Counted from the stretch's first letter, positions 3,575-31,963 are shown. The stretch: 64,000 nt of DNA from Acidimicrobiales bacterium (GCA_035653595.1 DASRBO010000190.1:5167-69166), one strand, 5' to 3'. Translations and numbers: made by a program. The notes: generated from the letters alone by a model not told the origin.

Positions 3575-4408
3575 ATGACGATCCGGGGGGTCCTCTTCGA
3601 CCACGTCGCCGTGGCGGCCGAGGACCAGCACCAGCTCTGGCCCCGCTACGTCGGCGACCTGGGCGGGCGCTGGATCGGGGGCGGCGGAACCGTCGGGTTC
3701 TTCTCCGCCCAGGTCTCCTATGCCAACGCGATGCGTCTCGAGGTGCTGGAGCCCTACCAGGTGGAGCGCAACGACTTCCTCCGGCGCTTCCTCGACCGCA
3801 ACGGCCCCGGTCCGCACCACCTGACCTTCAAGGTCCCCGACCTCGGCGCCGCCCTCGAGGAGGCCGACGGCGCCGGTTACTCACCCGTCGGCGTGGACAT
3901 GAGCGACCCCGGCTGGCAGGAGGCCTTCCTCCACCCCAAGGACGCCCCGGGCATAGTGGTCCAGCTGGCCCGGTCCAGCCACGAGGGCCAGTGGAGCTCG
4001 CCGCCGCCGGCCGAGGTCGCCACCCTCCCTACCGGCCCGAGCGCCGCTCTGATCCATGTCGCCCATGCCCTGTGCCGTCCGGCTGACGGGACCCGGCTCT
4101 TCGCCGGGCTGCTGGGAGGCGAGCAGGTGGCCGCCGGGGCCGGCTGGCTCGATCTCGACTGGCCGGGGGGCAACCGGGTGAGGCTGCTCGACGCCTCCGG
4201 CTCCGGGCCCCTGGCCGACTGGGTCGGCAGCCGGCCCGGCCGCCTTCACCACCTGGGGTTCCTGTGCGAGGAGCCAGGGACCATCGCCGGGGCCAAGCCC
4301 ACCGCGGATGACGGCCTGTGGACGGTGGAGCCGGAGGAGAACCTGGGGGTGCGACTGCTGCTCACCTCCGACCCGGACCTGTTCCAACAGGGCCGCCTCG
4401 GCTACTAG
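3575..4408 (+). CDS. VOC (glyoxalase/bleomycin-resistance/dioxygenase) family protein, two-domain
   Basis: 277-aa ORF. FDHVAVAA...LEVLEP...GPGPHHLTFKV and a second ...LHHLGFLC... module are typical paired beta-alpha-beta-beta-beta VOC repeats. Confidence 0.8.
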   Translation: MTIRGVLFDHVAVAAEDQHQLWPRYVGDLGGRWIGGGGTVGFFSAQVSYANAMRLEVLEPYQVERNDFLRRFLDRNGPGPHHLTFKVPDLGAALEEADGAGYSPVGVDMSDPGWQEAFLHPKDAPGIVVQLARSSHEGQWSSPPPAEVATLPTGPSAALIHVAHALCRPADGTRLFAGLLGGEQVAAGAGWLDLDWPGGNRVRLLDASGSGPLADWVGSRPGRLHHLGFLCEEPGTIAGAKPTADDGLWTVEPEENLGVRLLLTSDPDLFQQGRLGY

Positions 4409-4424
4409 AGGGGATTCCGCCGCC

Positions 4425-6035
4425 ATGGCCGAGCGCCGCTCGTGGTGGGGCTGGGGGCTGGAGGGCCAGGGTCCGTCCCGCCCGCAGCAGGAGGCCATCG
4501 CCACCGGGCTGGCGGCCCGCTTCGGGCGGGAGGTGACCGTCGCCGATCCGGCCCGCCTGGAGGATCTGGAGCTTCCCCCGCCCCGGATCCAAGCACCGGA
4601 GAGCCTGGCGCCGCTGTGCTCGACCGGCACCTACGAACGGGCCGGCCACAGCTACGGCCGGTCCTACCGCGACGTGGTGCGGGGTTTCCGGGGCCAGTTC
4701 GACCACCCCCCCGACGTGGTGGCCTTCCCCGCCGACGAGGCCGAGCTGGCGTCCCTTCTGGAGTGGGCCAGCGATGCTGACGTGGCCGTCGTCCCCTACG
4801 GGGGCGGTTCGTCGGTGGTGGGCGGGGTCGAATGCCCGGCCGACGGCCACGCCGGGGTGCTCACCGTCGATCTGGGCCGCATGGACGGGCTGGTCGAGCT
4901 GGACCGCACCTCGAGGGCGGCCCGGATCCAGGCCGGCATCCTCGGTCCCGCCCTCGAGGACCGGCTGCGCCCCCACGGCCTCACCCTGCGCCACTTCCCC
5001 CAGTCCTTCGAGTTCTCCAGCCTGGGCGGCTGGCTGGCCACCCGCTCCGGCGGTCACTACGCCACCGCCCGGACCCACATCGACGACTTCGTGGAGTCCA
5101 TGCGGGTGCTCACCCCGGCCGGAGCGGTCGAGTCCCGCCGGCTGCCTGGCTCAGGGGCCGGGCCCTCACCCGACCGGCTCTTCCTCGGGTCGGAGGGCAT
5201 CCTGGGGGTGATCACCGAGGCGTGGATCCGACTGCAGGACCGCCCCCGGTTCCGCTCCTCGGCGGCGGTCCGCTTCGAGCGCTACAGCGACGCCGTGGCC
5301 GCCACCCGGGCCGTGGTCCAGGCCGGCCTCCAGCCGGCCAACTGCCGGCTGCTGGACGAGGCGGAGGCGGCCTCCTCGGCCGGCTCCGGCGGTGGGGTGA
5401 ACCTGCTGGTGCTGGGATTCGAGTCGGCCGACCATCCCGTCGGCGGCCCCATGGACCGGGCCCTCGAGATCTGCGCCGGGCATTCCGGCTCGGCACCCGA
5501 CGGGGTGCGCAGCAGCGGCCCCGAGGATGGGGGTGGCGCCCAGCGGGAAGGCTCGGTGGGCGCCTGGCGCAATGCCTTCATCCGGGCCCCCTACACCCGC
5601 GACGCCCTAGTGGCCATGGCGGTCATCGTGGAGACGTTCGAGACCGCCTGCACCTGGGACCGCTTCGCCGACCTGCACGCCGGGGTGACCCAGGCGGTGG
5701 AGAAGGCCCTGGTCGACATCTGCGGGGGCGGGCTGGTGACCTGCCGGTTCACCCACGTCTATCCCGACGGGCCCGCCCCCTACTTCAGCGTCCTCGCCCC
5801 GGGCCGTCGGGGCTCGGAGATCTCCCAGTGGGACGAGATCAAGGCGGCCGCCTCCGAGGCGGTCATGAGCAACGGTGGGACCATCACCCATCACCACGCC
5901 GTGGGCCGCGACCACCGCCCCTGGTACGACCACCAGCGCCCCGAGCTCTTCGCCGAGGCCCTGCGGGCGGCCAAGGCGGCTCTCGACCCGGCCGGGGTGA
6001 TGAACCCCGGCGTCCTGGTGGAACCCCGTGGCTGA
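4425..6035 (+). CDS. FAD-linked oxidase, alkyl-dihydroxyacetonephosphate synthase (AgpS)-like
   Basis: ATG 4425 is preceded by GAGGGGA. The N-terminus reads RSWWGWGLEG, followed by an FAD-binding PCMH segment (VVPYGGGSSVVGG). The C-terminus reads ...TITHHHAVGRDHRPWY...LDPAGVMNPGVLV, as in AGPS/mycobacterial AgpS-type proteins. Confidence 0.85.
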   Translation: MAERRSWWGWGLEGQGPSRPQQEAIATGLAARFGREVTVADPARLEDLELPPPRIQAPESLAPLCSTGTYERAGHSYGRSYRDVVRGFRGQFDHPPDVVAFPADEAELASLLEWASDADVAVVPYGGGSSVVGGVECPADGHAGVLTVDLGRMDGLVELDRTSRAARIQAGILGPALEDRLRPHGLTLRHFPQSFEFSSLGGWLATRSGGHYATARTHIDDFVESMRVLTPAGAVESRRLPGSGAGPSPDRLFLGSEGILGVITEAWIRLQDRPRFRSSAAVRFERYSDAVAATRAVVQAGLQPANCRLLDEAEAASSAGSGGGVNLLVLGFESADHPVGGPMDRALEICAGHSGSAPDGVRSSGPEDGGGAQREGSVGAWRNAFIRAPYTRDALVAMAVIVETFETACTWDRFADLHAGVTQAVEKALVDICGGGLVTCRFTHVYPDGPAPYFSVLAPGRRGSEISQWDEIKAAASEAVMSNGGTITHHHAVGRDHRPWYDHQRPELFAEALRAAKAALDPAGVMNPGVLVEPRG

Positions 6036-6543
6036 CCGGCCGACGCCGCCCCCGCTGACCAAGTGGCTGGAGCCGCTGGAGCAGAGGCTCACCTACGCCG
6101 CCGCCGTGTACACCGCCCTGGCCACCCTGGTGGTGACGGTCCCCTACCTGAGCGGCAGCCACCCCAAGCTCAAGGGGTCCCCCGCCTTGGCCCTCGGCAT
6201 CGGGCTGGGGTCCGCCGCGGTCGTGCTGGTCGGGGCCCGCCTGCGCCACCGGTTGGGAGCGGCGCTGGCCGCCGGCCTGGCCGGGGTCGCCCCCTGGGGG
6301 GGGATCCTGAGCGTGCCGGTGCTCGGGCTGTCGTTCTGGCTGCTTTTCCGCAACAGCCGCCGCATGCGGGAGGAGCGGGGGCTGGCCCCCGCCCCGGCCC
6401 GGGGGGAGCGGCCGGCGGGCTTCCGGCGGCGGCGCCCCACGGCCGAGGCCGACGACGGCAAGCGCCGTCCGCCGGCCTCCAAGCGCTACACGCCCCCCAA
6501 GGCCCCCGACAAGGGAGGCCGGGGCGGCCGTCGCCGTGGCTGA
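6028..6543 (+). CDS. Hypothetical membrane protein with basic C-terminal tail
   Basis: The GTG start overlaps the upstream stop (GTGGCTGA, 6028-6035). There are three or four hydrophobic helices followed by an R/K/P-rich tail. No recognisable family. Confidence 0.55.
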   Translation: MADRPTPPPLTKWLEPLEQRLTYAAAVYTALATLVVTVPYLSGSHPKLKGSPALALGIGLGSAAVVLVGARLRHRLGAALAAGLAGVAPWGGILSVPVLGLSFWLLFRNSRRMREERGLAPAPARGERPAGFRRRRPTAEADDGKRRPPASKRYTPPKAPDKGGRGGRRRG

Positions 6544-6575: not shown

Positions 6576-8897
6576 GTGATTAGTGAGGCCCTCGAGGGCC
6601 GGCGCATCGCCGTCACCGGCGCCACCGGCTTCCTCGGCACCGCCCTGGTGGAGCGGCTGCTGCGCTGCGTCCCCGGTGCCGAGGTGGCCGTGCTCGTCCG
6701 GCCCGGCCGGCGGGGGGCGGCCGAACGGGCCCGGCGGGAGATCCTGCGCAACGACTGCTTCGACCGCCTCCGCTCCGAGCTGGGCGACCGCTTCGACGCC
6801 GAGGTCTCCCGTCGCCTGCTGGTGATGGCCGGCGACGTGGGCGAGGACGGGCTGGGCCTCGACGACGCGGGACGGGAGATCCTCGCCGGCTGCCACACGG
6901 TGGTGCACTCGGCCGCCACGGTCAGCTTCGACTCCCCCCTCGACTCGGCGGTGGAGACCAACCTGCTGGGGCCGTCGCGGGTGGCCGTCGCCATGGCCGA
7001 GGCCCGCGTTGATCCCGCCCACCTGGTGGCGGTGTCCACCGCCTACGTCGCCGGCGGAAGGCGGGGCGACGCCCGCGAGCTGCCGCTCAGCCAGACCCCC
7101 TTCGCCGTCGACGTGCCCTGGCGGGACGAGGTCACCGCCGCCCGCCGCGTGCGGGCGGATGTGGAGGCAGCCAGCCGGGCCGCCTCCGCCCTGGCCCGGT
7201 TCCACAAGCAGGCCCGGGCCGAGCTGGGCGCCGCCGGCACCCCGCTGTTGTCCGAGCGGGCCGAGCGCTTCCGCCAGGAGTGGGTCAACGACCAGCTGGC
7301 CGAGGCGGGACGGGCCCGGGCCCAGTCGCTCGGTTGGCCCGACGCCTACGCCTACACCAAGGCCCTGGGCGAGCGGGCCCTGCTGGAGACCAGGGGCGCG
7401 GTGCCGGTGACCATCGTGCGGCCCTCGATCATCGAGTCCGCCCTGGCCGAGCCCCGCCCGGGCTGGATACGCGGGTTCCGGATGGCCGAGCCGGTGATCA
7501 TCTCCTACGCCCGCGGCCTGCTGCAGTCCTTCCCCGGCGTGCCCGAGGGGGTCGTCGACGTGGTTCCCGTCGACCTGGTGGTGGCCGCCATCATCGCCGT
7601 GGCCGCCACCGGCCCCGACCCGTCGGGCTCGTCGGTGTACCAGGTGGCCTCGGGCTCGGCCAACCCCCTGCGCTACCGCAACCTGGTCGACCTGGTGCAG
7701 TCGTACTTCACCGACAGCCCCCTCTACGACGCCGAGGGCCAGCCCATCGTGGTGCCGCAGTGGTCCTTCCCCGGCCGGGGCCGGGTCCAGCGCCAGCTGG
7801 AGCGGGCCGACCGGGCCCTGTCCACCGCCGAGAAGACCGTGCGCTCGCTGCCCGTCCGAGGCCGCCAGGCCCGCTGGAGCGCCGAGGTCGAGGAGCGCCG
7901 GGTCCAGGTCGGCCGGGCCCTCGACTACGTCCGCCTGTACGGGGCCTACACCGAAACCGAGGCCCGCTTCCGGGTCGACCGGCTCCTCGAGCTGTGGCAG
8001 GCCCTGCCCGAGTCCGACCGGGCCTTCTGCTTCGACCCCCGGGTCATCGACTGGCGCCGCTACGTCCAGGAGATCCACCTGCCCTCGGTCGTGACCCACG
8101 CCCGGGTGCGGGCCACCCCCGGCCGGCGCACCGGGCCCGACCGCCACGAGCGGGGCCGGCGGGCGATCCTCAGCCCCGAGCGCCACCTGGCCGCCTTCGA
8201 CCTCGAGAACACCCTGGTGGCCTCCAACGTGGTCGAGTCCTACGCCTGGCTGGCGACCAGGCACCTGGCCGACTCCGACCGCGTCCGCTTCACCCTGCGG
8301 ACCCTGCGGGAGGCCCCGTCGCTGCTGGCCCTCGACCGGCGGGACCGGGGCGACTTCCTGCGCCACTTCTACCGCCGTTACGAGGGGGCCGACCCCGACC
8401 GGCTGCGGGAGGACGCCCCCGAGCTGTTCGCCCGGCTGCTGCTGGCCAAGTCCTTCCCCGCCGGCATCCGCCGGGTGCGGGAGCACCGCGCCCTCGGGCA
8501 CCGCACCTTGCTCATCACCGGGGCCCTCGACATCGTGGTGGAGCCGTTCCGGGCCCTCTTCGACGACATCGTCTGTGCCCGCCTGTCGGTGCGGGACGGC
8601 CGGCTCACCGGTGAGCTGGACCAGTCCCCGCCCACCGGGGAGGCCAGGGCCATGGTGATGGCCGACTACGCCGAGGCCGAGGGTCTCGACCTGGCCCAGT
8701 CGGTCGCCTACGCCGACTCGGCCAGCGACCTGCCGATGCTCGAGGCCGTCGGCCATCCGGTGGCGGTGAACCCGGAGGTAAAGCTGGCCACCATCGCCCG
8801 CAAGCGGGGCTGGCACACCGAGCAGTGGGACAAGGCTGCCGGCTACTCCGCCCCCCTCCTTCCCATCGCTCCCCGGCTGGCGGCCCGGTGGCGCTGA
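6576..8897 (+). CDS. Fatty acyl-CoA reductase (NAD_binding_4 / male-sterility type SDR) fused to a C-terminal HAD-IB-like domain
   Basis: 773 aa. The N-terminal part has IAVTGATGFLGTALVERLL, SAATVSF, YAYTKALGE and VTIVRPSII, the FAR hallmarks. The C-terminal part has LAAFDLENTLV ... LLITGALD ... YADSASDLPMLEAVGHPVAVNP, the HAD-IB motifs. Confidence 0.9.
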   Translation: MISEALEGRRIAVTGATGFLGTALVERLLRCVPGAEVAVLVRPGRRGAAERARREILRNDCFDRLRSELGDRFDAEVSRRLLVMAGDVGEDGLGLDDAGREILAGCHTVVHSAATVSFDSPLDSAVETNLLGPSRVAVAMAEARVDPAHLVAVSTAYVAGGRRGDARELPLSQTPFAVDVPWRDEVTAARRVRADVEAASRAASALARFHKQARAELGAAGTPLLSERAERFRQEWVNDQLAEAGRARAQSLGWPDAYAYTKALGERALLETRGAVPVTIVRPSIIESALAEPRPGWIRGFRMAEPVIISYARGLLQSFPGVPEGVVDVVPVDLVVAAIIAVAATGPDPSGSSVYQVASGSANPLRYRNLVDLVQSYFTDSPLYDAEGQPIVVPQWSFPGRGRVQRQLERADRALSTAEKTVRSLPVRGRQARWSAEVEERRVQVGRALDYVRLYGAYTETEARFRVDRLLELWQALPESDRAFCFDPRVIDWRRYVQEIHLPSVVTHARVRATPGRRTGPDRHERGRRAILSPERHLAAFDLENTLVASNVVESYAWLATRHLADSDRVRFTLRTLREAPSLLALDRRDRGDFLRHFYRRYEGADPDRLREDAPELFARLLLAKSFPAGIRRVREHRALGHRTLLITGALDIVVEPFRALFDDIVCARLSVRDGRLTGELDQSPPTGEARAMVMADYAEAEGLDLAQSVAYADSASDLPMLEAVGHPVAVNPEVKLATIARKRGWHTEQWDKAAGYSAPLLPIAPRLAARWR

Positions 8898-8925: not shown

Positions 8926-10134
8926 ATGAAGGCCCTGCAGTTCGACCGCTCGGCGGCCCGCTACGCCCTGGCCCGGGCGGCCGGCGAGGTGGTGGCGGGC
9001 GGGGGGGCCAGGGTCGGCCCCCTGAGACTGGTCGAGACCGAGCCACCGGCGCTGCCCGGGCCGGAGTGGCGCCGGGTGGCCCCGCTGCTGGCCGGCATCT
9101 GCGGCTCGGACCTGGCCACCGTCGACGGGCGCAGCTCCCGCTACTTCGAGCCCATCGTGAGCTTCCCGTTCGTGCCCGGCCACGAGGTGGTCGGCGAGCT
9201 GGCCGACGGTGGGCCCGACGACGGCGCCCGGGTGGTGATCGAGCCGGTGCTGGGCTGCGCCGCCCGCGCCATCGAGCCGCCGTGTCCGGGCTGCGCCTCC
9301 GGCCACACCGGTAGCTGCGAGCGCGTGGCCTTCGGGCACCTGAAGCCAGGGCTGCAGACCGGGTTCTGCTCCGACGTCGGCGGCGGGTGGTCGGCCGCCC
9401 TGGTCGCCCATCCGTCCCAGCTCCACCGGGTGCCCGACGGGATGGCCGACGAGGAGGCGGTCATGGTCGAGCCCACCGCCTGCGCTGTCCATGCCGCCCT
9501 TTCGGCCGGCCCGCTGGAGGGCAGGACCGTCGCCGTGCTCGGGGCCGGCACCCTGGGCCTCACCGTGCTGGCCGCCCTGCGCCGGTTCTGCCTGCCCGGC
9601 GCCGTCATCGCCGGGGCCAAGCACCCCGAGCAGCGCCGGCTGGCGGCCGAGCTGGGCGCCGACGAGGTGGTCAATCCCGATGGTCTGGCCCGGGCGGTCC
9701 GCCGGCGCACCCGCTCCCTCGACGTGGGGCCCCGGCTGTCCGGGGGCGCCGATGTGGTCTTCGACTGTGTCGGCAGCGCGGCCTCGCTGACCGAGGCCCT
9801 GGGCATCGTCCGGCCCCGGGGCCGGGTGGTCATGGTGGGGATGCCCGGCTCGGTCCGGGTCGACCTGACCCCGCTGTGGCACCGCGAGATCGAGCTGGTG
9901 GGTGCCTACGCCTACGGCACCGAGGTCACCGACGGCGCTGCGGTGCGCACCTTCCAGCTGGCCTTCGATCTGGTGAGGGAGGCGGGGCTGGGACGCCTGG
10001 TGAGCGCCCGCTACCCCCTCGACCGCTACACCGAGGCCCTGGCTCATGCCGGCAACGCCGGCCGCCGGGGAGCGGTGAAGGTCGTGTTCGACCTGCGGCA
10101 CGAGTCCCGCCGTCCGACATGGAGAACCGAATGA
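8926..10134 (+). CDS. Zinc-binding alcohol dehydrogenase (MDR family)
   Basis: 402 aa. Motifs seen: GICGSDL, PFVPGHEVVG, a structural-Zn-like CPGCASGHTGSC, and GAGTLGL for nucleotide binding. Confidence 0.9.
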   Translation: MKALQFDRSAARYALARAAGEVVAGGGARVGPLRLVETEPPALPGPEWRRVAPLLAGICGSDLATVDGRSSRYFEPIVSFPFVPGHEVVGELADGGPDDGARVVIEPVLGCAARAIEPPCPGCASGHTGSCERVAFGHLKPGLQTGFCSDVGGGWSAALVAHPSQLHRVPDGMADEEAVMVEPTACAVHAALSAGPLEGRTVAVLGAGTLGLTVLAALRRFCLPGAVIAGAKHPEQRRLAAELGADEVVNPDGLARAVRRRTRSLDVGPRLSGGADVVFDCVGSAASLTEALGIVRPRGRVVMVGMPGSVRVDLTPLWHREIELVGAYAYGTEVTDGAAVRTFQLAFDLVREAGLGRLVSARYPLDRYTEALAHAGNAGRRGAVKVVFDLRHESRRPTWRTE

Positions 10135-11720
10135 GCCCCAGGCCCGGATTCGTACTCGAGGTGGACCGCTCGTCGCCGCCCAGCCTCCTCTGGCACGGAG
10201 AGGGCTTCCGGCTGGAGCGACTGCCGGTGGGGACAAGAGTGGTCCACCCGCCCGAGCCGCTGGCCGCCATCGAGGAGCCCGACGAGGCCATCCGCCACGC
10301 CCTCGAGCACCCCCAGGGCGACAGTGCCCCGCTGTCGGCCCTGCTGCGGCCGGGCATGCGGCTGACCATCGCCTTCGACGACGTGTCGCTGCCGCTGCCC
10401 CCCATGCGCGCCCCCGACGTGCGCCAGCGGGTCATCGAGGCGGTGCTCGACACCGCCGCCGCCGCTGGGGTCGACGACGTGGTGCTGATGGCCGCCCTGG
10501 CCCTGCACCGCCGCATGACCGAGCCCGAGCTGCGCCACGCCCTGGGCGACCGCATCTACGACGCCTTCGCACCCCACGGCCTGCTGGTGCAGCACGACGC
10601 CGAGGACCCGTCGAACCTCGAGCACCTCGGCCAGACCGAAATGGGCGAGGACGTGGAGATAAACAAGCGGGCCGCCACCAGCGACCTGATCGTCTACGTC
10701 AACATCAACCTGGTGGCCATGGACGGGGGCCACAAGAGCGTGGCGACCGGTCTGGCCAGCTACCGCAGCCTGCGCCACCACCACAACGTCCACACCATGG
10801 TGCACTCGCGCTCGTTCATGGACCAGGAGCGCTCCGAGCTGCACTCGTCCAACTGGCGCATGGGACGCCACCTCGCCGCCAGCGGGGTGAAGGTCTTCCA
10901 GATCGAGACCACCCTCAACAACGACACGTTCCCCGACCCGTTCCGCTTCCTCTCCCGCCGCGAGTGGGAGTGGACGGCGCGGGACCGGGCCACCTATCTG
11001 GCCACCACCGCCGGGCTGGCCCGGGCACCCGATCGGGTCAAGCGGACGATCTTCCAGTCCATGCGGGCGCCGGTCGGGCTCACCAGCGTGCAGGCGGGCG
11101 AGGTGGAGGCGGTGCACAGGCTGACCACCGCCAACGTCTACCGCCAGCAGCTGGTCGAGGTGGAGGGGCAGTCCGACGTGCTGCTGATGGGCCTGCCCTA
11201 CATCTGCCCCTACAACGTCAACTCGATCATGAACCCGATCCTGGTGATGTGCCTGGGCCTCGGGTACTTCTTCAACCTCTACCGGGGCAAGCCGCTGGTG
11301 CGCCCGGGCGGCGCCCTGATCATGTCCCACCCCACCCCGTGGGCCTTCGACCCGGTGTTCCATCCCAGCTACATCGACTTCTTCGAGCAGGTGCTGGCGG
11401 AGACGACCGACCCGGCCGAGATCGAGGAGAAGTACGAGCAGTCCTTCGCCACCGACCCGTGGTACATCCACCTGTACCGCACCGGGCACGCCTACCACGG
11501 CGTCCATCCGTTCTACATGTGGTACTGGGGGGCACACGCCCTCGACCACCTGGGCCGGGTGATCATCGTGGGCGGGGACCCGGCCGCCGTGCGCCGGCTC
11601 GGCTTCAAGTCGGCCTCCACCCTCCCCGACGCCCTCGAGATGGCCGAGGACGTCGTCGGCCGGCATCCCAGCATCACCTACCTGCGCTGTCCCCCTTTGC
11701 TGATGGCCGACGTGAGATGA
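10131..11720 (+). CDS. LarA-like (lactate racemase N-terminal domain / DUF2088) protein
   Basis: The real start is inside ORF 9387-11720. ATG 10131 forms an ATGA overlap with the ADH stop (alternative ATG 10119). It has ...RLTIAFDDVSLPLPP... and ...NINLVAMDGGHKSVATGLASYRSLRHHHNVH..., which resemble LarA-family N-domain and GGxK...H segments. Confidence 0.75.
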   Translation: MSPRPGFVLEVDRSSPPSLLWHGEGFRLERLPVGTRVVHPPEPLAAIEEPDEAIRHALEHPQGDSAPLSALLRPGMRLTIAFDDVSLPLPPMRAPDVRQRVIEAVLDTAAAAGVDDVVLMAALALHRRMTEPELRHALGDRIYDAFAPHGLLVQHDAEDPSNLEHLGQTEMGEDVEINKRAATSDLIVYVNINLVAMDGGHKSVATGLASYRSLRHHHNVHTMVHSRSFMDQERSELHSSNWRMGRHLAASGVKVFQIETTLNNDTFPDPFRFLSRREWEWTARDRATYLATTAGLARAPDRVKRTIFQSMRAPVGLTSVQAGEVEAVHRLTTANVYRQQLVEVEGQSDVLLMGLPYICPYNVNSIMNPILVMCLGLGYFFNLYRGKPLVRPGGALIMSHPTPWAFDPVFHPSYIDFFEQVLAETTDPAEIEEKYEQSFATDPWYIHLYRTGHAYHGVHPFYMWYWGAHALDHLGRVIIVGGDPAAVRRLGFKSASTLPDALEMAEDVVGRHPSITYLRCPPLLMADVR

Positions 11721-12598
11721 GGCTGCCCGCCTTCCCCTGGGGGGCGCCCACCCGGCCCGGAGGCGTACCCCTGCCCCCGGTCGAGCGGGAGACCGGGGTG
11801 TACTACGACACCTCCTGGTCCCGCCGCTACGAGGCCCGCCTGGCCCGGGCCCTCCTTCTCGAGGGCGTCACCCGCCCGCTGGTCCACACCGTCATCCCCC
11901 CTCGGGTGGAGGGGCTGGACCGCATCGAGGGCTTGGAGGCACCGGCGGTGTTCGCCGCCAACCACAACAGCCACCTCGACACCCCCCTGATCCTGTCCAC
12001 CCTGCCCCGGCGCTTCCGCCACCGCACCGTGGTGGCGGGGGCGGCCGACTACTTCTTCGACACCAAATGGAAGGCGGCGGTGTGGTCCCTGACCGTGGCC
12101 GCCGTGCCCATCGAGCGCATCCGGGTGAGCCGGCGCTTCCTCGAGCTCGGCATGGGCCTGCTGGCCGACGGTTGGTCGGTGGTGATCTATCCCGAAGGGG
12201 GGCGCTCGCCCGACGGCTGGGCCCAGCCCTTCATCGCCGGGGTCGCCTACCTCGCCTACCGGGCCCGGGTCCCCCTGGTCCCGCTCCACATCGCCGGCAC
12301 GTCCGAGGCCCTGCCCAAGGGGGCCCGCCGGCTACGGCCGGGGCGCACGGCGGTCACCTTCGGGCGCCCGATGCCGCCCGACCCCGACGAGGATCCCCGC
12401 CGCCTGTCGGCCCGCCTCGAGGCCGAGGTGGCCGCCCTGGCCGACGAGCACGCCACCGACTGGTGGCAGGCCCGCCGCCGGGCCGCCGCCGGGGCCACCC
12501 CGGCCCTGTCGGGACCGGACGCCCCGGGCTGGCGGCGCTCGTGGGCCCGAACTCCGCCGAGCGCGGCGTCCCGCAGCTGGCCCCACAAGGGGCCCTGA
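11717..12598 (+). CDS. Lysophospholipid / 1-acyl-sn-glycerol-3-phosphate acyltransferase (PlsC family)
   Basis: ATG 11717 forms an ATGA overlap with the upstream stop. It carries the acyltransferase blocks ANHNSHLD (HX4D) and IYPEGGRS. Confidence 0.85.
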   Translation: MRLPAFPWGAPTRPGGVPLPPVERETGVYYDTSWSRRYEARLARALLLEGVTRPLVHTVIPPRVEGLDRIEGLEAPAVFAANHNSHLDTPLILSTLPRRFRHRTVVAGAADYFFDTKWKAAVWSLTVAAVPIERIRVSRRFLELGMGLLADGWSVVIYPEGGRSPDGWAQPFIAGVAYLAYRARVPLVPLHIAGTSEALPKGARRLRPGRTAVTFGRPMPPDPDEDPRRLSARLEAEVAALADEHATDWWQARRRAAAGATPALSGPDAPGWRRSWARTPPSAASRSWPHKGP

Positions 12599-12609
12599 GG
12601 CGAACCGGT

Positions 12610-13335
12610 CTACTCGAGGAGGCGCAGCCCGCTGGGGGCGATGGAGGGCTCGGGCGAGACCAGCTCGACCACGAACTCGGTGCGGTGGGCGGGAAAGACG
12701 TGCTCGCTGACCAGCACCACCTCCCCGTCCTGGGAGCGGGTCACCCGCTGGCACACCAGCACCGGCGAGCCCACGGGCACCCCCAGTGCCCGGGCGTCGG
12801 CGGCCGAGGCGGCGGCGGCCCCGATGGTCTGGGTGGCGCTGGCCAGGCCGACCCCGATCAGCTCGTAGAACGGGGAGCGCTCCACGTCGTCACGCGACAG
12901 CGATCCGGCCAGGCGTTCGGGGGCCCACACCGTCACCAGGGCGAAGGGGGCGCCGTCGGCCAGGTTGAGCCGGCGGACCCGCAGCACGCTCCCCGGCCCC
13001 AGCAGCTCGGCCACCGGCGCCGGCGCCTCCTGCCAGGCGAACTCGAGCACCTTGCGCCCGGGCTGGCGGCCCTGGGCGGCCATCTGGGCCTCGATGGTGC
13101 CCAGGTGTCCCAGGTCCTGGCGCACGGGGGCCACGGCGGCGAACCATCCGAAACCCTGGCGGGAGTCGATCAGGCCCTCCTCCCGCAGCACCTCGAGGGC
13201 CTTGCGGACCGTCACCCGGCTGACGCCGTAGCGTTGGGACAGCTCGGCCTCGCTGGGCAGCAGGCTTCCGGGCGTCGCCGCCCCCAGGTCCCGCCTCAGG
13301 TCGGCGGCGATGGCGCGGTAGCGGATCTCCCTCAC
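12610..13335 (-). CDS. GntR-family transcriptional regulator (HutC/UTRA subfamily)
   Basis: 241 aa with a GTG start. The winged HTH reads [31 protein letters not shown], followed by a UTRA-like C-domain. Confidence 0.9.
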
Positions 13336-30978: not shown

Positions 30979-31963
30979 GCGGCGTGGGGGCGTCGGGCGA
31001 GATCACCTTCGCCCTCCTGAGCTCCTCCCACAGACCGGCGGGGATGTAGCGGTCGGTCATGGCCACGTTGTCGGCCACCTCCTGGGGGCTGCGGCAGCCC
31101 ACGACAACGGCTGCGACCGCCGGGTGGGCGAGCGCGAACTGCAGGGCGACCGCAGGCAGCTCGACGTCGTGGCCGGCACACAGCTCGGCGAGCACCGCCA
31201 CCCGTTCCTGCACCTCCGGCGGCGCCGGGGCGTAGTCGAAGGTGGCCCCCGGGCCGGGGGCGGCCAGGATCCCGCTGTTGAACACCCCACCCAGGACCAC
31301 GGCAGTCCCCGACGTCGAGCACTGCTCCAGCAGATCCAGGCCCGGACGCCCGTGGTCGAGGAGGCTGTAGCGGCCGGCCAGCAGCACGCAGTCGAGGTGG
31401 AGCTCGCGCACCAGCCGGGCCAACAGCGACGCCTGGTTCATCCCGACCCCGATGGCGCCGACGGTGCCCTCGTCCCGCAGCCGGACCAGGGCCGGATAAG
31501 CGCCGGTGACGGCGTCGTCGTGGTGGTCGTCGGGGTCGTGGATGTAGGCGATGTCGACCCGGTCGGTCCGCAACCGGGCCAGGCTGGCTTCGACCTGGCG
31601 CAGCACCCCGTCGTAGGAGAAGTCGAACACCGACTTGAGAGGCGGGGCGCCGACGAAGAGGTCGGCGGGATCCTCCGGGCGGCGCGGCTCCAACCGCCGG
31701 CCGACCTTGGTGGACAGGGTCAGCTCGCCCCGGGGCCGGCCGGCGAGGGCGGCTCCCAACCGCTCCTCGCCCAGCCCGGCCCCGTAGTGCGGAGCGGTGT
31801 CGAACAGCCGCAGGCCGGCGTCCCATGTCGCCGCCACCACCCCGAGGGCCTGCTCCTCGGAGACCTGGCGGTACAGGCCGGCCAGGACCGCGCCACCCAG
31901 GCCCAGCCTGGTGGTGACCGATGCGCCTATGCGGGCGGGGGCGAGTGACCGCCGCTCGGTCAT
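30971..31963 (-). CDS. Aldo/keto reductase (D-threo-aldose / L-fucose 1-dehydrogenase-like)
   Basis: Trimmed to ATG 31963, which forms an ATGA overlap with the SDR stop. Motifs LGLGGAVLAGLY, LFDTAPHYGAGLGEERLG, AYIHDPD. Confidence 0.85.
   Translation of the reverse strand: MTERRSLAPARIGASVTTRLGLGGAVLAGLYRQVSEEQALGVVAATWDAGLRLFDTAPHYGAGLGEERLGAALAGRPRGELTLSTKVGRRLEPRRPEDPADLFVGAPPLKSVFDFSYDGVLRQVEASLARLRTDRVDIAYIHDPDDHHDDAVTGAYPALVRLRDEGTVGAIGVGMNQASLLARLVRELHLDCVLLAGRYSLLDHGRPGLDLLEQCSTSGTAVVLGGVFNSGILAAPGPGATFDYAPAPPEVQERVAVLAELCAGHDVELPAVALQFALAHPAVAAVVVGCRSPQEVADNVAMTDRYIPAGLWEELRRAKVISPDAPTPLS

What the first reader, a model, noticed from the sequence alone, without database searches (positions are those of the whole stretch)
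10131..11720. LarA-family protein embedded in a lipid operon, with no LarB/C/E nearby
Seen in sequence:
- The 529-aa protein is translationally coupled on both sides (ATGA/ATGA), to an alcohol dehydrogenase and to a PlsC acyltransferase.
- It contains …MDGGHK-x13-HHH…. Counting from the Lys, a His sits at +16.

Established knowledge, recalled and not verified here: in Lactobacillus plantarum LarA the nickel-pincer cofactor is tethered to Lys184 in a GGxK context, and Ni is ligated by His200, which is also a +16 spacing. LarA homologues racemise or epimerise 2-hydroxy acids.

Two features differ from that enzyme:
- The position 10 residues before the Lys, a catalytic His in LarA as I recall, is not His here (…NINLVAMDGGHK).
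- The N-terminal D-x-T-R-P-like phosphate motif reads DDVSLPLPP.

Inference: this is a divergent LarA-like enzyme, possibly acting on the secondary alcohol or stereocentre of a glycerol or hydroxy-lipid intermediate, or a non-catalytic paralogue. No cofactor-biosynthesis genes are in the window.
Basis: partly seen in the sequence, partly recalled or inferred. Interest (0 to 1): 0.6.

Follow-up and report, generated by a model that had tools for sequence, protein, structure and literature searches.

The report
ElbC-type nickel-pincer enzyme in ether-lipid operon
This lactate-racemase-like gene belongs to a catalogued but uncharacterised family (LarAH14, the counterpart of ElbC in the myxobacterial ether-lipid operon), so it is a testable candidate for an unassigned step of bacterial ether-lipid synthesis.

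Summary
ORF 10131-11720 encodes a 529-aa protein, ATGA-coupled to a Zn-dehydrogenase and a PlsC acyltransferase.

- **Fold and residues:** it has a full LarA fold. It keeps the cofactor residues Asp84, His126, Lys202 and His218. It has Asn193 for His174 and Leu87 for Arg75.
- **Family:** it passes NCBIfam NF052592 (LarAH14/15/16). It is an orthologue of Frankia LarAH14, which showed no activity on seven hydroxyacids in 2020.
- **Cofactor genes:** larB, larC and larE lie elsewhere in this genome. This is the genome's only LarA-fold gene. In two relatives larE-larB-larC directly follow the operon.
- **Operon:** FAR-HAD, Zn-ADH, LarAH and PlsC are conserved across Actinomycetota.
- **Elb link:** relatives 47% identical sit at the elbC position of elbB-C-D-E-type clusters. 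MXAN_1529 (ElbC) is LarAH group 15.
- **Best reading:** a nickel-pincer enzyme acting on a glycerol-phosphate or lipid intermediate in an elb-like ether-lipid pathway. The exact step is inferred only.
- **Puzzle:** five near-complete genomes have the operon but no larBCE.
- **Special here:** an alkyl-DHAP-synthase-like gene lies directly upstream, which is rare.

The scan has reached the ElbC reading before on other DNA (62 notes, at least 56 genomes).

The parts
10131..11720 (+). LarAH14 / ElbC-type LarA-family protein, 529 aa (P0001)
   Evidence: Pfam Lar_N 132 bits. NCBIfam NF052592 898.6 bits against a cut-off of 740. AF2 pLDDT 94.2. Foldseek best match 9q3k, TM 0.77/0.84. It is 47% identical end to end to the elbC-position protein of L122.
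10380..10382 (+). Asp84 codon, equivalent to LarA Asp72 (binds the NPN ribose)
   Evidence: Alignment to 9q2u and 5huq. Invariant in 26 and in 79 sequences.
10389..10391 (+). Leu87 codon, at the position of LarA Arg75 / LarA_Sp Lys76 (binds NPN phosphate and substrate carboxylate); not basic here
   Evidence: alignment. Leu/Met/Val in 79 ElbC-like sequences. Ile/Leu in Desguin Table S3.
10506..10508 (+). His126 codon, equivalent to catalytic His108
   Evidence: invariant.
10707..10709 (+). Asn193 codon, at the position of the second catalytic His174 (Asn185 in LarA_Sp)
   Evidence: alignments. Asn in 78 of 79 ElbC-like sequences and in most of alignment A1.
10734..10736 (+). Lys202 codon in GGHK, equivalent to the NPN-tethering Lys184
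   Evidence: invariant.
10782..10784 (+). His218 codon, equivalent to the Ni ligand His200 (His211 in LarA_Sp)
   Evidence: invariant.
11208..11213 (+). Pro360-Tyr361 codons. Tyr361 aligns with Tyr307 of LarA_Sp at the ligand site; His306 of LarA_Sp is Pro here.
   Evidence: alignment. Invariant. The ligand-site residues are named in PMC12611868.
11496..11507 (+). His456 to His459 (HGVH). His459 aligns with His401 of LarA_Sp at the ligand site.
   Evidence: both His invariant.
6576..8897 (+). Fatty acyl-CoA reductase (NAD_binding_4 + Sterile) fused to a HAD-IB domain. It corresponds to the ElbD N-terminal domain plus ElbB.
   Evidence: Pfam. TIGR01490 100.2 bits against 98.3. Conserved directly upstream.
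8926..10134 (+). Zn-dependent medium-chain dehydrogenase of the polyol-dehydrogenase branch
   Evidence: Pfam. Nearest solved structures are L-idonate 5-DH, L-threonine 3-DH, ketose reductase and xylitol DH. Conserved next to the LarAH gene.
11717..12598 (+). PlsC-type (HX4D) acyltransferase. It corresponds to the ElbD C-terminal AT domain.
   Evidence: Pfam Acyltransferase 61.5 bits. Conserved downstream.
4308..6035 (+). Alkyl-DHAP-synthase-like FAD oxidase. A lineage-specific addition upstream of the module; the start codon is uncertain.
   Evidence: PDB best hits are AGPS 2uuu (4.9e-64) and 4bby (1e-61), against D-LDH at 1e-25. It lies upstream in only 1 of 80 related loci.
6028..6543 (+). 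Small ORF (171 aa) between the AGPS-like and FAR-HAD genes, of unknown family. Its start overlaps the AGPS-like stop.
   Evidence: No Pfam or NCBIfam hit. Atlas gives only hypothetical actinobacterial clusters, with scores below 0.9.
12610..13335 (-). GntR/HutC-family regulator, convergent with the end of the operon
   Evidence: NCBIfam hits are all below cut-off; the best is the Rv0792c family at 120 bits.

Best explanation
The gene encodes an ElbC-type member of the LarA superfamily (Desguin group 14, NCBIfam LarAH14/15/16).

What it most likely is:
- It most likely carries the nickel-pincer nucleotide (NPN) on Lys202, with His218 ligating nickel.
- It has only one acid/base histidine (His126) and no carboxylate-binding Arg or Lys.
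- It is therefore not a 2-hydroxyacid racemase.

The pathway around it:
- It works inside a conserved four-gene module: FAR-HAD, Zn-dehydrogenase, LarAH and PlsC.
- This module is a rearranged actinobacterial version of the myxobacterial elb ether-lipid operon (ElbB is the HAD, ElbC the LarAH, ElbD the FAR-ACS-ACP-AT protein, ElbE an NAD-dependent dehydrogenase).

Shown here: family membership, fold, conserved cofactor residues, presence of NPN biosynthesis genes, and conserved context across phyla.

Inferred mechanism, about 0.25-0.3 on its own:
1. The enzyme borrows a hydride from the C2 hydroxyl of a glycerol-phosphate moiety.
2. It returns that hydride to the carbon of a fatty-aldehyde-derived hemiacetal or oxocarbenium. 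The alternative is that it holds the hydride while an acyl group is exchanged for an alkyl group. Either way it forms 1-O-alkyl-dihydroxyacetone or 1-O-alkyl-glycerol phosphate with no net redox change.
3. The Zn-dehydrogenase then reduces the C2 ketone.
4. PlsC acylates sn-2.
For: Family and fold:
- NF052592 at 898.6 bits, over the 740 cut-off.
- Full LarA fold, closest to the NPN-loaded LarA_Sp structure 9q3k.

Conserved residues:
- Asp84, His126, Lys202, His218, Tyr361, Arg450, His456 and His459 are invariant in 26 actinobacterial and 79 ElbC-like sequences.

Cofactor supply:
- The own genome has larB, larC and larE over their curated cut-offs, and only this one Lar_N gene.
- In the own class, 18 of 18 genomes with the gene have larC, and 13 of 13 without it lack larC. 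This is a hand count.
- larE-larB-larC directly follow PlsC on the same strand in L031 and L030.

Context:
- The module is conserved in 14 of 17 diverse loci. The three Rubrobacter-like loci lack an adjacent PlsC.
- It is conserved in 74 of 80 Acidimicrobiales loci.
- L122 has the order HAD, Lar_N protein, then a FAR/AMP-binding/PP-binding/Acyltransferase protein, then an epimerase-family gene. Its Lar_N protein is 47% identical to P0001.

Literature:
- MXAN_1529 is LarAH group 15, and elbA-E are MXAN_1531-1527 (PMC13012113).
- ElbC has no assigned function. The Elb route works with an aldehyde and without detected fatty alcohol (PMC9131029).
- Rubrobacterales are reported to hold about 46% ether-linked core lipids (cited in PMC10821996). 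Family f25, read as Rubrobacter-like from a motif match only, carries the gene in all 31 sampled genomes.
- NPN enzymes doing hydride shuttling other than racemisation now exist (NphT, PMC13524815).
Against: - No experiment shows that any group 14/15 protein binds NPN or nickel.
- Frankia LarAH14 supplemented with NPN showed none of seven activities (PMC7583248).
- The Arg75/Lys76 equivalent that helps bind the NPN phosphate is Leu here.
- Eleven of 98 sampled genomes with the gene lack larC. Five near-complete ones lack larB, larC and larE altogether, yet keep all the residues.
- No lipid data exist for this organism.
- elbC itself has not been knocked out, according to the review I read.
- The specific hydride-borrowing step is chemical inference only.
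- I could not inspect model coordinates to confirm the pocket geometry.
Confidence: 0.6

Rival explanations
1. It is what its database name says: an NPN-dependent 2-hydroxyacid racemase or epimerase. It would act, for example, on a 2-hydroxy fatty acid, glycerate or a sugar acid that feeds the lipid pathway.
For: - NCBIfam names the family 'NPN-dependent hydroxyacid isomerase'.
- Every LarA homologue characterised so far acts on 2-hydroxy acids (PMC11770544).
Against: - The second catalytic His is Asn. The Arg75 equivalent is Leu. Desguin's Table S3 shows Asn at the Lys298 position and a gap at Gln295.
- Frankia LarAH14 was inactive on seven hydroxyacid reactions.
- The neighbours are lipid enzymes, not acid-sugar enzymes.
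Confidence: 0.1
2. The protein does not use NPN. It would be a scaffold or lipid-binding subunit, or an enzyme using another cofactor, that merely keeps the LarA fold.
For: - Five near-complete genomes (G387, G183, G014, G116, G321) have the module but no larB, larC or larE over cut-off.
- Eleven of 98 genomes with the gene lack larC.
- The phosphate-binding Arg/Lys is lost.
- Desguin's group 16 paralogues lack the Lys.
Against: - Lys202, His218, Asp84 and His126 are invariant in 105 sequences, including those from the lar-less genomes.
- Co-occurrence with larC is perfect in the own class.
- larEBC abut the module in family f21.
- This is the only LarA-fold client for larBCE in this genome.
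Confidence: 0.12
3. The module makes a non-ether lipid, such as a wax-ester-like, acylated fatty alcohol or diol, or alkyl-phosphate product. The LarA-like enzyme would be a hydride-transfer isomerase on a hydroxy-aldehyde or ketol intermediate unrelated to ether-bond formation.
For: - The FAR carries the 'Sterile' domain typical of alcohol-forming reductases.
- The actinobacterial module lacks the ACS-ACP part of ElbD and uses a Zn-ADH in place of ElbE.
- I found no ether-lipid reports for most taxa that carry it.
Against: - There is domain-for-domain correspondence with the elb operon, whose elbD is required for ether lipids.
- Rubrobacterales, rich in ether lipids, are read here as family f25, which carries the gene in all 31 sampled genomes.
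- An AGPS-like gene has been recruited next to the module in this genome and in L046.
Confidence: 0.15

Closest known systems
LarAH14 of Frankia sp. EAN1pec (Franean1_4168), Desguin et al. 2020 group 14 (PMC7583248)
   Same: - Same NCBIfam family, same length and same motif set (FDD..L, LHRR, NxN, GGHK-x13-HHH, PY, YR, H..H).
- Same neighbours: COG0204 (PlsC), COG0560 (HAD) and COG1063 (Zn-ADH), each in 88% of the group.
   Different: - It comes from a different order (Acidimicrobiales here).
- This window has an extra AGPS-like gene upstream.
- The Frankia protein was purified and found inactive on seven hydroxyacid reactions. Nothing has been tested for this one.
ElbC (MXAN_1529) of the Myxococcus xanthus elbABCDE ether-lipid operon (LarAH group 15)
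   Same: - Same NCBIfam family. A Myxococcales-cluster relative scores 759.6 bits, over the 740 cut-off.
- 47% identity end to end to the elbC-position protein of L122.
- All cofactor and pocket residues are shared.
- It is flanked by HAD, FAR and acyltransferase functions.
   Different: - In elb clusters the FAR and AT are domains of one ElbD protein that also has ACS and ACP, the HAD is a separate gene, and the dehydrogenase is of the SDR/epimerase type.
- Here the FAR is fused to the HAD, the AT is a separate gene, there is no ACS-ACP, and the dehydrogenase is a Zn-MDR.
- I did not compare directly with MXAN_1529 itself, because no sequence reference was available.
LarA_Sp / LarA_Bw, the single-histidine LarA subfamily (group 17; PDB 9q3k, 9q2u, 9q3j; PMC12611868)
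   Same: - Best sequence and structure match among solved proteins.
- Asn replaces the second catalytic His.
- The Asp, His, Lys and His cofactor set, Tyr307 (Tyr361 here) and His401 (His459 here) are shared.
- LarA_Sp was shown to carry NPN covalently.
   Different: - About 24% identity.
- Lys76 is Leu87 here, and His306 is Pro360 here.
- Their context is glycolytic or sugar-related, not lipid.
- They form octamers; the oligomeric state is unknown here.
Lactate racemase LarA of Lactiplantibacillus plantarum (PDB 5HUQ)
   Same: - Same fold (TM 0.64/0.76).
- Lys184, His200, Asp72 and His108 equivalents are present.
- The cofactor is made by LarB, LarC and LarE, which this genome encodes.
   Different: - No His174 and no Arg75 equivalent.
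- By sequence only the N domain aligns (E 5.6e-9).
- About 100 residues longer.
- Not a hydroxyacid context.
Alkyl-DHAP synthase (AGPS) route and NphT (AKR-fold NPN hydride shuttle, PMC13524815)
   Same: This is 'works like', not membership.
- AGPS makes the ether bond at a C2-keto glycerol phosphate.
- NphT shows that NPN can shuttle hydride in reactions other than racemisation.
- AGPS-like genes and LarAH14 are nearly mutually exclusive in the phylum sample: AGPS-like is in 4 of 98 genomes with LarAH14 and 72 of 303 without.
   Different: - The folds and cofactors are unrelated (FAD oxidase fold; TIM barrel).
- There is no evidence that LarAH14 catalyses either reaction.

Membership tests
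LarA superfamily (Lar_N / LarA two-domain fold) | Lar_N domain over the Pfam gathering score | tested here: met
   PF09861 132.1 bits against 23.3, residues 38-229.
LarA superfamily (Lar_N / LarA two-domain fold) | Whole two-domain fold superposes on solved LarA structures | tested here: met
   AF2 pLDDT 94.2. Foldseek gives 9q3k at E 2e-34 with TM 0.77/0.84, and 5huq at TM 0.64/0.76.
LarA superfamily (Lar_N / LarA two-domain fold) | Cofactor-tethering Lys in GGxK, and the Ni-ligand His 16 residues later | tested here: met
   Lys202 and His218 align with Lys184/His200 and with Lys195/His211. Both are invariant.
LarA superfamily (Lar_N / LarA two-domain fold) | NPN biosynthesis genes larB, larC and larE in the genome | tested here: met
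   LarB 243.3 against 175, LarC1 196 against 90, LarE 290.8 against 150, all on other contigs.
LarA superfamily (Lar_N / LarA two-domain fold) | Protein actually carries nickel and NPN | not testable with these tools
   This needs metal analysis and intact mass of protein co-expressed with LarB/C/E.
Canonical NPN-dependent 2-hydroxyacid racemases/epimerases (LarA sensu stricto, MAR, HGR, GntE) | Two catalytic histidines (His108 and His174) | tested here: not met
   His126 is present. The His174 position is Asn193. Desguin Table S3 shows a gap there.
Canonical NPN-dependent 2-hydroxyacid racemases/epimerases (LarA sensu stricto, MAR, HGR, GntE) | Carboxylate-binding Arg75, Gln295 and Lys298 | tested here: not met
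   The Arg75 position is Leu87. For group 14, Table S3 lists a gap at Gln295 and Asn at Lys298. The C domain does not align with 5huq by sequence.
NCBIfam NF052592, LarAH14/15/16 family | Full-length score over the curated cut-off | tested here: met
   898.6 bits against 740, profile positions 1-520 of 520.
ElbC / elb-type ether-lipid gene cluster | Orthology with the LarA-like protein at the elbC position | tested here: met
   47% identity and E 1e-171 over 523 aa to the L122 protein that lies between the HAD and ElbD-like genes. MXAN_1529 is listed in LarAH group 15, and elbA-E are MXAN_1531-1527.
ElbC / elb-type ether-lipid gene cluster | Neighbours supply HAD, fatty-acyl reductase, acyltransferase and an NAD(P) dehydrogenase | tested here: met
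   for the window. for conservation.
ElbC / elb-type ether-lipid gene cluster | Multidomain ElbD with acyl-CoA synthetase and ACP domains | tested here: not met
   No AMP-binding or PP-binding domain lies in the window's module. They are present in L122.
ElbC / elb-type ether-lipid gene cluster | The cluster is needed for 1-O-alkyl/alkenyl glycerolipids | not testable with these tools
   There is genetic evidence only for elbD (and elbE) in M. xanthus (PMC9131029). No lipid data exist for this organism.
Single-histidine LarA subfamily (group 17, LarA_Sp/LarA_Bw) | Asn at the His174 position | tested here: met
   Asn193 aligns with Asn185.
Single-histidine LarA subfamily (group 17, LarA_Sp/LarA_Bw) | Lys76 and the His306-Tyr307 pocket; glycolytic gene context | tested here: not met
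   Leu87 and Pro360-Tyr361 here. The context is lipid, not glycolytic. This is a sister group, not the same subfamily.

The most novel reading that the evidence does not exclude
ElbC/LarAH14 is the missing ether-bond-forming enzyme of the AGPS-independent aerobic route. It would use the nickel-pincer cofactor to borrow the hydride of the glycerol-phosphate C2 hydroxyl. It would then deliver that hydride to a fatty-aldehyde hemiacetal or oxocarbenium carbon. This would be the first LarA-fold enzyme acting on a non-hydroxyacid and the first nickel-dependent step in membrane-lipid synthesis. It would make ether lipids of Actinomycetota, Myxococcota and Acidobacteriota depend on nickel and larBCE.
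Probability: 0.25. Interest if true: 0.85.

Novelty: new member of a known kind. Interest (0 to 1): 0.58.

Why it matters
Two open questions meet in this gene. The LarA field has had group 14/15 proteins as orphans since 2020. They have one catalytic histidine, no activity on hydroxy acids, and have been suggested to do 'another hydride-mediated reaction'. The bacterial ether-lipid field has not known since 2014 how the ElbD route forms the ether bond without AGPS, and ElbC is still drawn as a protein of unknown function.

Recognising that these are the same family gives a concrete candidate and simple tests. If the idea holds, it would link nickel supply to membrane composition in abundant soil and water actinobacteria such as Acidimicrobiales and Rubrobacter. 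It would also inform the use of alkylglycerol lipids as biomarkers.

As a gene call, the finding is an ordinary member of an annotated family. I found no paper in the searchable library that joins 'ElbC' and 'racemase', but key papers (Lorenzen 2014; Sinninghe Damste 2023) were not held.

Tried and rejected
- **AGPS-like gene as part of the conserved pathway: rejected.** It is upstream in only this window and L046, among 61 loci with room for it. It is found in only 4 of 98 genomes that carry the LarAH14 gene.
- **Sub-cut-off relatives as orthologues: rejected.** Family f37 (L036, 43% identity) sits next to a family-III CoA-transferase and has no lipid genes.
- **Fused forms as Rosetta-stone evidence: weak.** ADH-LarAH, LarAH-PlsC and FAR-HAD-LarAH fusions exist, but each is a single-member cluster. 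Since the genes overlap, they may be gene-calling artefacts.
- **The look-up of encoding contigs was closed.** I obtained contexts of distant relatives by a metagenome scan and tblastn instead.
- **Sinninghe Damste 2023 on Rubrobacterales lipids is not held.** I used it only through papers that cite it. My memory that its abstract mentions a putative alkylglycerol-phosphate operon is unverified.
- **No model coordinates reach the script box.** Residue equivalences therefore rest on HMMER alignments, not on measured geometry.
- **larBCE co-occurrence in Myxococcota or Acidobacteriota could not be tested.** No genome handles were available outside the window's own phylum.
- **NphT-type AKR next to larB/C/E as an alternative NPN client.** None of the ten AKR genes over the Pfam cut-off lies on the lar contigs. 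Distant AKR clients cannot be excluded.
- **The small ORF 6028-6543 gave no usable lead**.


Full report
**1. Observation**

The ORF 10131-11720 (+) gives a 529-aa protein, P0001.
- Its ATG overlaps the TGA of the upstream gene 8926-10134 (ATGA at 10131-10134).
- Its TGA overlaps the ATG of the downstream gene 11717-12598 (ATGA at 11717-11720).
- Pfam calls the neighbours a Zn-dependent medium-chain dehydrogenase and an acyltransferase. It calls P0001 a Lar_N protein (132.1 bits).
- The motif MDGGHK-x13-HHH is present: Lys202, then His216 to His218.

**2. Formal alignment to characterised LarA proteins**

phmmer against PDB sequences finds LarA_Sp best (9q2u/9q3k, E 1e-36, both domains aligned). 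LarA_Bw follows (9q3j, 3e-26). L. plantarum LarA aligns over the N domain only (5huq, 5.6e-9).

| P0001 | L. plantarum LarA | LarA_Sp |
|---|---|---|
| Asp84 | Asp72 | Asp73 |
| Leu87 | Arg75 | Lys76 |
| His126 | His108 | His115 |
| Asn193 | His174 | Asn185 |
| Lys202 | Lys184 | Lys195 |
| His218 | His200 | His211 |
| Pro360-Tyr361 | not aligned | His306-Tyr307 |
| His459 | not aligned | His401 |

- His211 is the Ni ligand in the NPN-loaded cryo-EM structure (PMC12611868). The 'His221' in another section of that paper looks like a misprint.
- An AlphaFold model built on a 26-sequence alignment is confident (pLDDT 94.2, pTM 0.92).
- The model superposes best on 9q3k (TM 0.77/0.84). It also matches the lactate racemases (5huq, TM 0.64/0.76).
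- So the Lys/His pair is homologous to the NPN tether and the Ni ligand.
- The second catalytic His is an Asn, as in the 'single-histidine' subfamily, not simply absent.
- The basic residue that contacts the NPN phosphate and the substrate carboxylate is lost.

**3. It is a catalogued family**

- NCBIfam NF052592, 'NPN-dependent hydroxyacid isomerase, LarAH14/15/16 family', scores 898.6 bits against a cut-off of 740 over the full profile.
- Desguin et al. 2020 (PMC7583248) defined group 14. Its members come from Acidimicrobium, Ilumatobacter, Frankia, Kribbella, Nocardioides and Rubrobacter.
- They purified Frankia LarAH14, supplied NPN made in vitro, and detected none of seven hydroxyacid reactions.
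- Their Table S1 already lists the neighbours of group 14: COG0204 (PlsC) 88%, COG0560 (HAD) 88%, COG1063 (Zn-ADH) 88% and COG3320 (thioester reductase) 50%.
- Their Table S3 records the missing His174, Arg75 and Lys298 equivalents.
- The family is large. More than 6,000 proteins match at E <= 1e-20. Close relatives at about 80% identity are Acidimicrobiales MAG proteins. There are 453 clusters (at 50% identity) at E <= 1e-30.

**4. Cofactor supply**

In this genome (4.07 Mb, 202 contigs, 94.9% complete):
- P0001 is the only Lar_N gene.
- larB and larC sit side by side on contig C149 (243.3 bits against 175; 196 against 90).
- larE sits on C68 (290.8 against 150).

In a sample of 401 genomes of the phylum:
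- 98 have the gene over cut-off, and 275 have larC.
- By my hand count, 87 of the 98 have larC.
- Within the window's own class, all 18 genomes with the gene have larC, and all 13 without it lack larC.

In two genomes of family f21 (loci L031 and L030), larE, larB and larC1 follow PlsC directly on the same strand. Their scores are 289.6, 223.3 and 121.3 bits, all over cut-off. Together this is good genomic support for NPN use.

Against it:
- Eleven of the 98 lack larC.
- Five near-complete genomes of family f28 lack larB, larC and larE entirely.
- Those five still keep the module and every cofactor residue. I cannot explain this.

The tallies include some unpublished genomes:
- G088, G226, G148, G318, G082, G343, G174;
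- additionally G001, G048, G391, G239, G018, G120;
- G268.

No individual claim rests on any of them.

**5. The operon**

The window's same-strand genes are:
- 4308-6035: FAD oxidase;
- 6028-6543: small ORF with no family;
- 6576-8897: fatty acyl-CoA reductase (NAD_binding_4 plus Sterile) fused to a HAD-IB domain;
- 8926-10134: Zn-ADH;
- 10131-11720: the LarAH gene;
- 11717-12598: PlsC;
- 12610-13335 (minus strand): a convergent GntR-family gene.

Conservation, by tblastn with the window's proteins:
- FAR-HAD, Zn-ADH, LarAH and PlsC occur in this order in 14 of 17 loci from eleven families of the phylum.
- The three Rubrobacter-like loci have the first three genes but no adjacent PlsC. There the module is interrupted by protoglobin, MarR, GAF and MOSC genes.
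- The same order occurs in 74 of 80 Acidimicrobiales loci. The other six lack one or more of the four genes and are mostly short or contig-end loci.

Other features:
- The Zn-ADH is nearest to L-idonate 5-, L-threonine 3-, sorbitol and xylitol dehydrogenases. These enzymes oxidise a secondary alcohol in a polyol chain.
- The upstream FAD oxidase is AGPS-like. Alkyl-DHAP synthases score 4.9e-64 and 1e-61, while D-lactate dehydrogenase scores 1e-25.
- The AGPS-like gene is not part of the core. It lies upstream in only one other locus (L046).
- AGPS-like genes are found in 4 of 98 genomes with the LarAH14 gene, and in 72 of the other 303.
- This near exclusion fits two alternative routes to one product, with this lineage having recruited AGPS beside the module. 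That reading is inference.

**6. The link to ElbC**

- Desguin's group 15 has COG0451, COG0560 and COG1022 neighbours. It contains MXAN_1529.
- The M. xanthus ether-lipid operon elbABCDE runs from MXAN_1531 to MXAN_1527 (PMC13012113). MXAN_1529 is therefore elbC.
- The review PMC9131029 describes elbC as encoding a protein of unknown function, between elbB (HAD) and elbD (FAR-ACS-ACP-AT).

I checked this with sequence:
- A cluster with a Myxococcales member (P0142, 46% identical) passes NF052592 at 759.6 bits.
- Eighty metagenome loci of its relatives were fetched.
- In locus L122 the order is: HAD; a Lar_N protein (539 aa); a 1563-aa NAD_binding_4/AMP-binding/PP-binding/Acyltransferase protein; then an epimerase-family dehydrogenase. 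This is elbB-C-D-E.
- Across the 80 loci, a HAD gene lies directly upstream in 50 of 58 with room for it.
- A FAR domain lies directly downstream in 36 of 58.
- An acyltransferase domain lies 3-5 kb downstream in 25 of 39.
- No locus has a Zn-ADH.
- P0001 is 47% identical over 523 residues to the L122 protein.
- In 79 such proteins, Asp83, Asp84, His126, Arg127, Asn191, Gly199, Gly200, Lys202, His217, His218, Pro360, Tyr361, Arg450, His456 and His459 are invariant. Asn193 is present in 78.

So the actinobacterial module is a rearranged elb cluster:
- ElbD's FAR domain is fused to ElbB's HAD.
- ElbD's AT is a separate PlsC gene.
- A Zn-ADH stands in for the SDR-type ElbE.
- There is no ACS-ACP.

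**7. How it probably works**

Known from papers:
- elbD is needed for alkyl and vinyl ether lipids.
- Fatty alcohol was not detected. An aldehyde that depends on elbD was detected.
- The ether-forming step is unassigned.
- Rubrobacterales hold about 46% ether-linked core lipids (Sinninghe Damste 2023, as cited in PMC10821996).
- Family f25 matches Rubrobacter xylanophilus in the motif around the Lys. It carries the gene in all 31 sampled genomes.
- NPN can do hydride shuttling beyond racemisation (NphT). Its authors note that single-His LarA homologues have a Tyr/His arrangement that might do the same.

My inference is that the enzyme oxidises the C2 hydroxyl of a glycerol-phosphate moiety transiently. 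A single base suffices, because only one face is used. No carboxylate binder is needed, because the substrate carries a phosphate. It then returns the hydride in one of two ways:
- to a hemiacetal or oxocarbenium formed with the FAR-derived aldehyde, giving 1-O-alkyl-DHAP plus water; or
- after an acyl-for-alkyl exchange.

The Zn-ADH would then act as alkyl-DHAP reductase and PlsC as the sn-2 acyltransferase. None of these steps is shown.

**8. Verdict**

- The gene is a regular member of a known, annotated but functionally orphan family.
- The 'no lar genes nearby' worry is resolved.
- The 'non-catalytic' option is unlikely, though the lar-less carriers keep it alive.
- The same ElbC reading has been reached repeatedly in this scan on other genomes (62 notes in at least 56 genomes). 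I reached it from the papers before reading those notes.
- Particular to this window are the AGPS-like gene recruited directly upstream and the absence of the TetR gene that other notes describe.

Noticed in passing
window 4308-6035 (+): An alkyl-DHAP-synthase-like FAD oxidase lies at the head of the same gene string. It is rare next to this module (one other locus, L046). It is nearly mutually exclusive with the LarAH14 gene in the phylum sample: 4 of 98 genomes with the gene, 72 of 303 without.
   Followed up: yes
G387, G183, G014, G116, G321 (loci L022-L024 for three of them): Five near-complete genomes of one family (f28) carry the full FAR-HAD/ADH/LarAH/PlsC module with all NPN-binding residues. 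They have no larB, larC or larE over cut-off. Their source of cofactor, or the need for it, is unexplained.
   Followed up: partly
L031 11207-13985 (+); L030 5920-8091 (-): In two genomes of family f21, larE, larB and larC1 follow the PlsC gene of the module directly on the same strand.
   Followed up: yes
protein P0203 (cluster of 13 members, 947-949 aa): This is a LarAH14/15/16-like domain (440 bits, below cut-off) fused to a C-terminal chlorophyll a/b-binding (LHC) domain. It is presumably from a photosynthetic eukaryote.
   Followed up: no
L025 10623-13123 (-): In Rubrobacter-like loci the module is interrupted between the Zn-ADH and LarAH genes by protoglobin, MarR, GAF and MOSC genes. 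No PlsC is adjacent.
   Followed up: partly
L036 7592-10502 (+): A sub-cut-off relative (43% identical, family f37) keeps the Lys and His residues. It sits after a family-III CoA-transferase, with no lipid genes nearby. It is probably a different function within the clade.
   Followed up: partly
window 6028-6543 (+): This 171-aa ORF overlaps the AGPS-like stop codon. It has no Pfam or NCBIfam family. The Atlas gives only hypothetical actinobacterial clusters, with weak structural likeness to small DoxX/MauE-type membrane proteins.
   Followed up: partly
several genomes of family f24 and others (e.g. G098:C22:21700-23103, G179:C66:17777-19177): Second LarA-like paralogues of about 490 aa match the family profile only at E 1e-50 to 1e-70, in two pieces. 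I did not examine their contexts.
   Followed up: no
window 31043-31909 (-): An aldo-keto reductase gene lies in the window (G000:C190:36209-37075). AKR-fold enzymes can also use the nickel-pincer cofactor (NphT). I did not check it for the His/Lys motif.
   Followed up: no
paper PMC12611868, section 2.5 versus 2.4: The Ni-ligand histidines are given as His221/His223 in one section and as His211 in another. Counting along the PDB sequence supports His211 (Lys195 + 16).
   Followed up: yes
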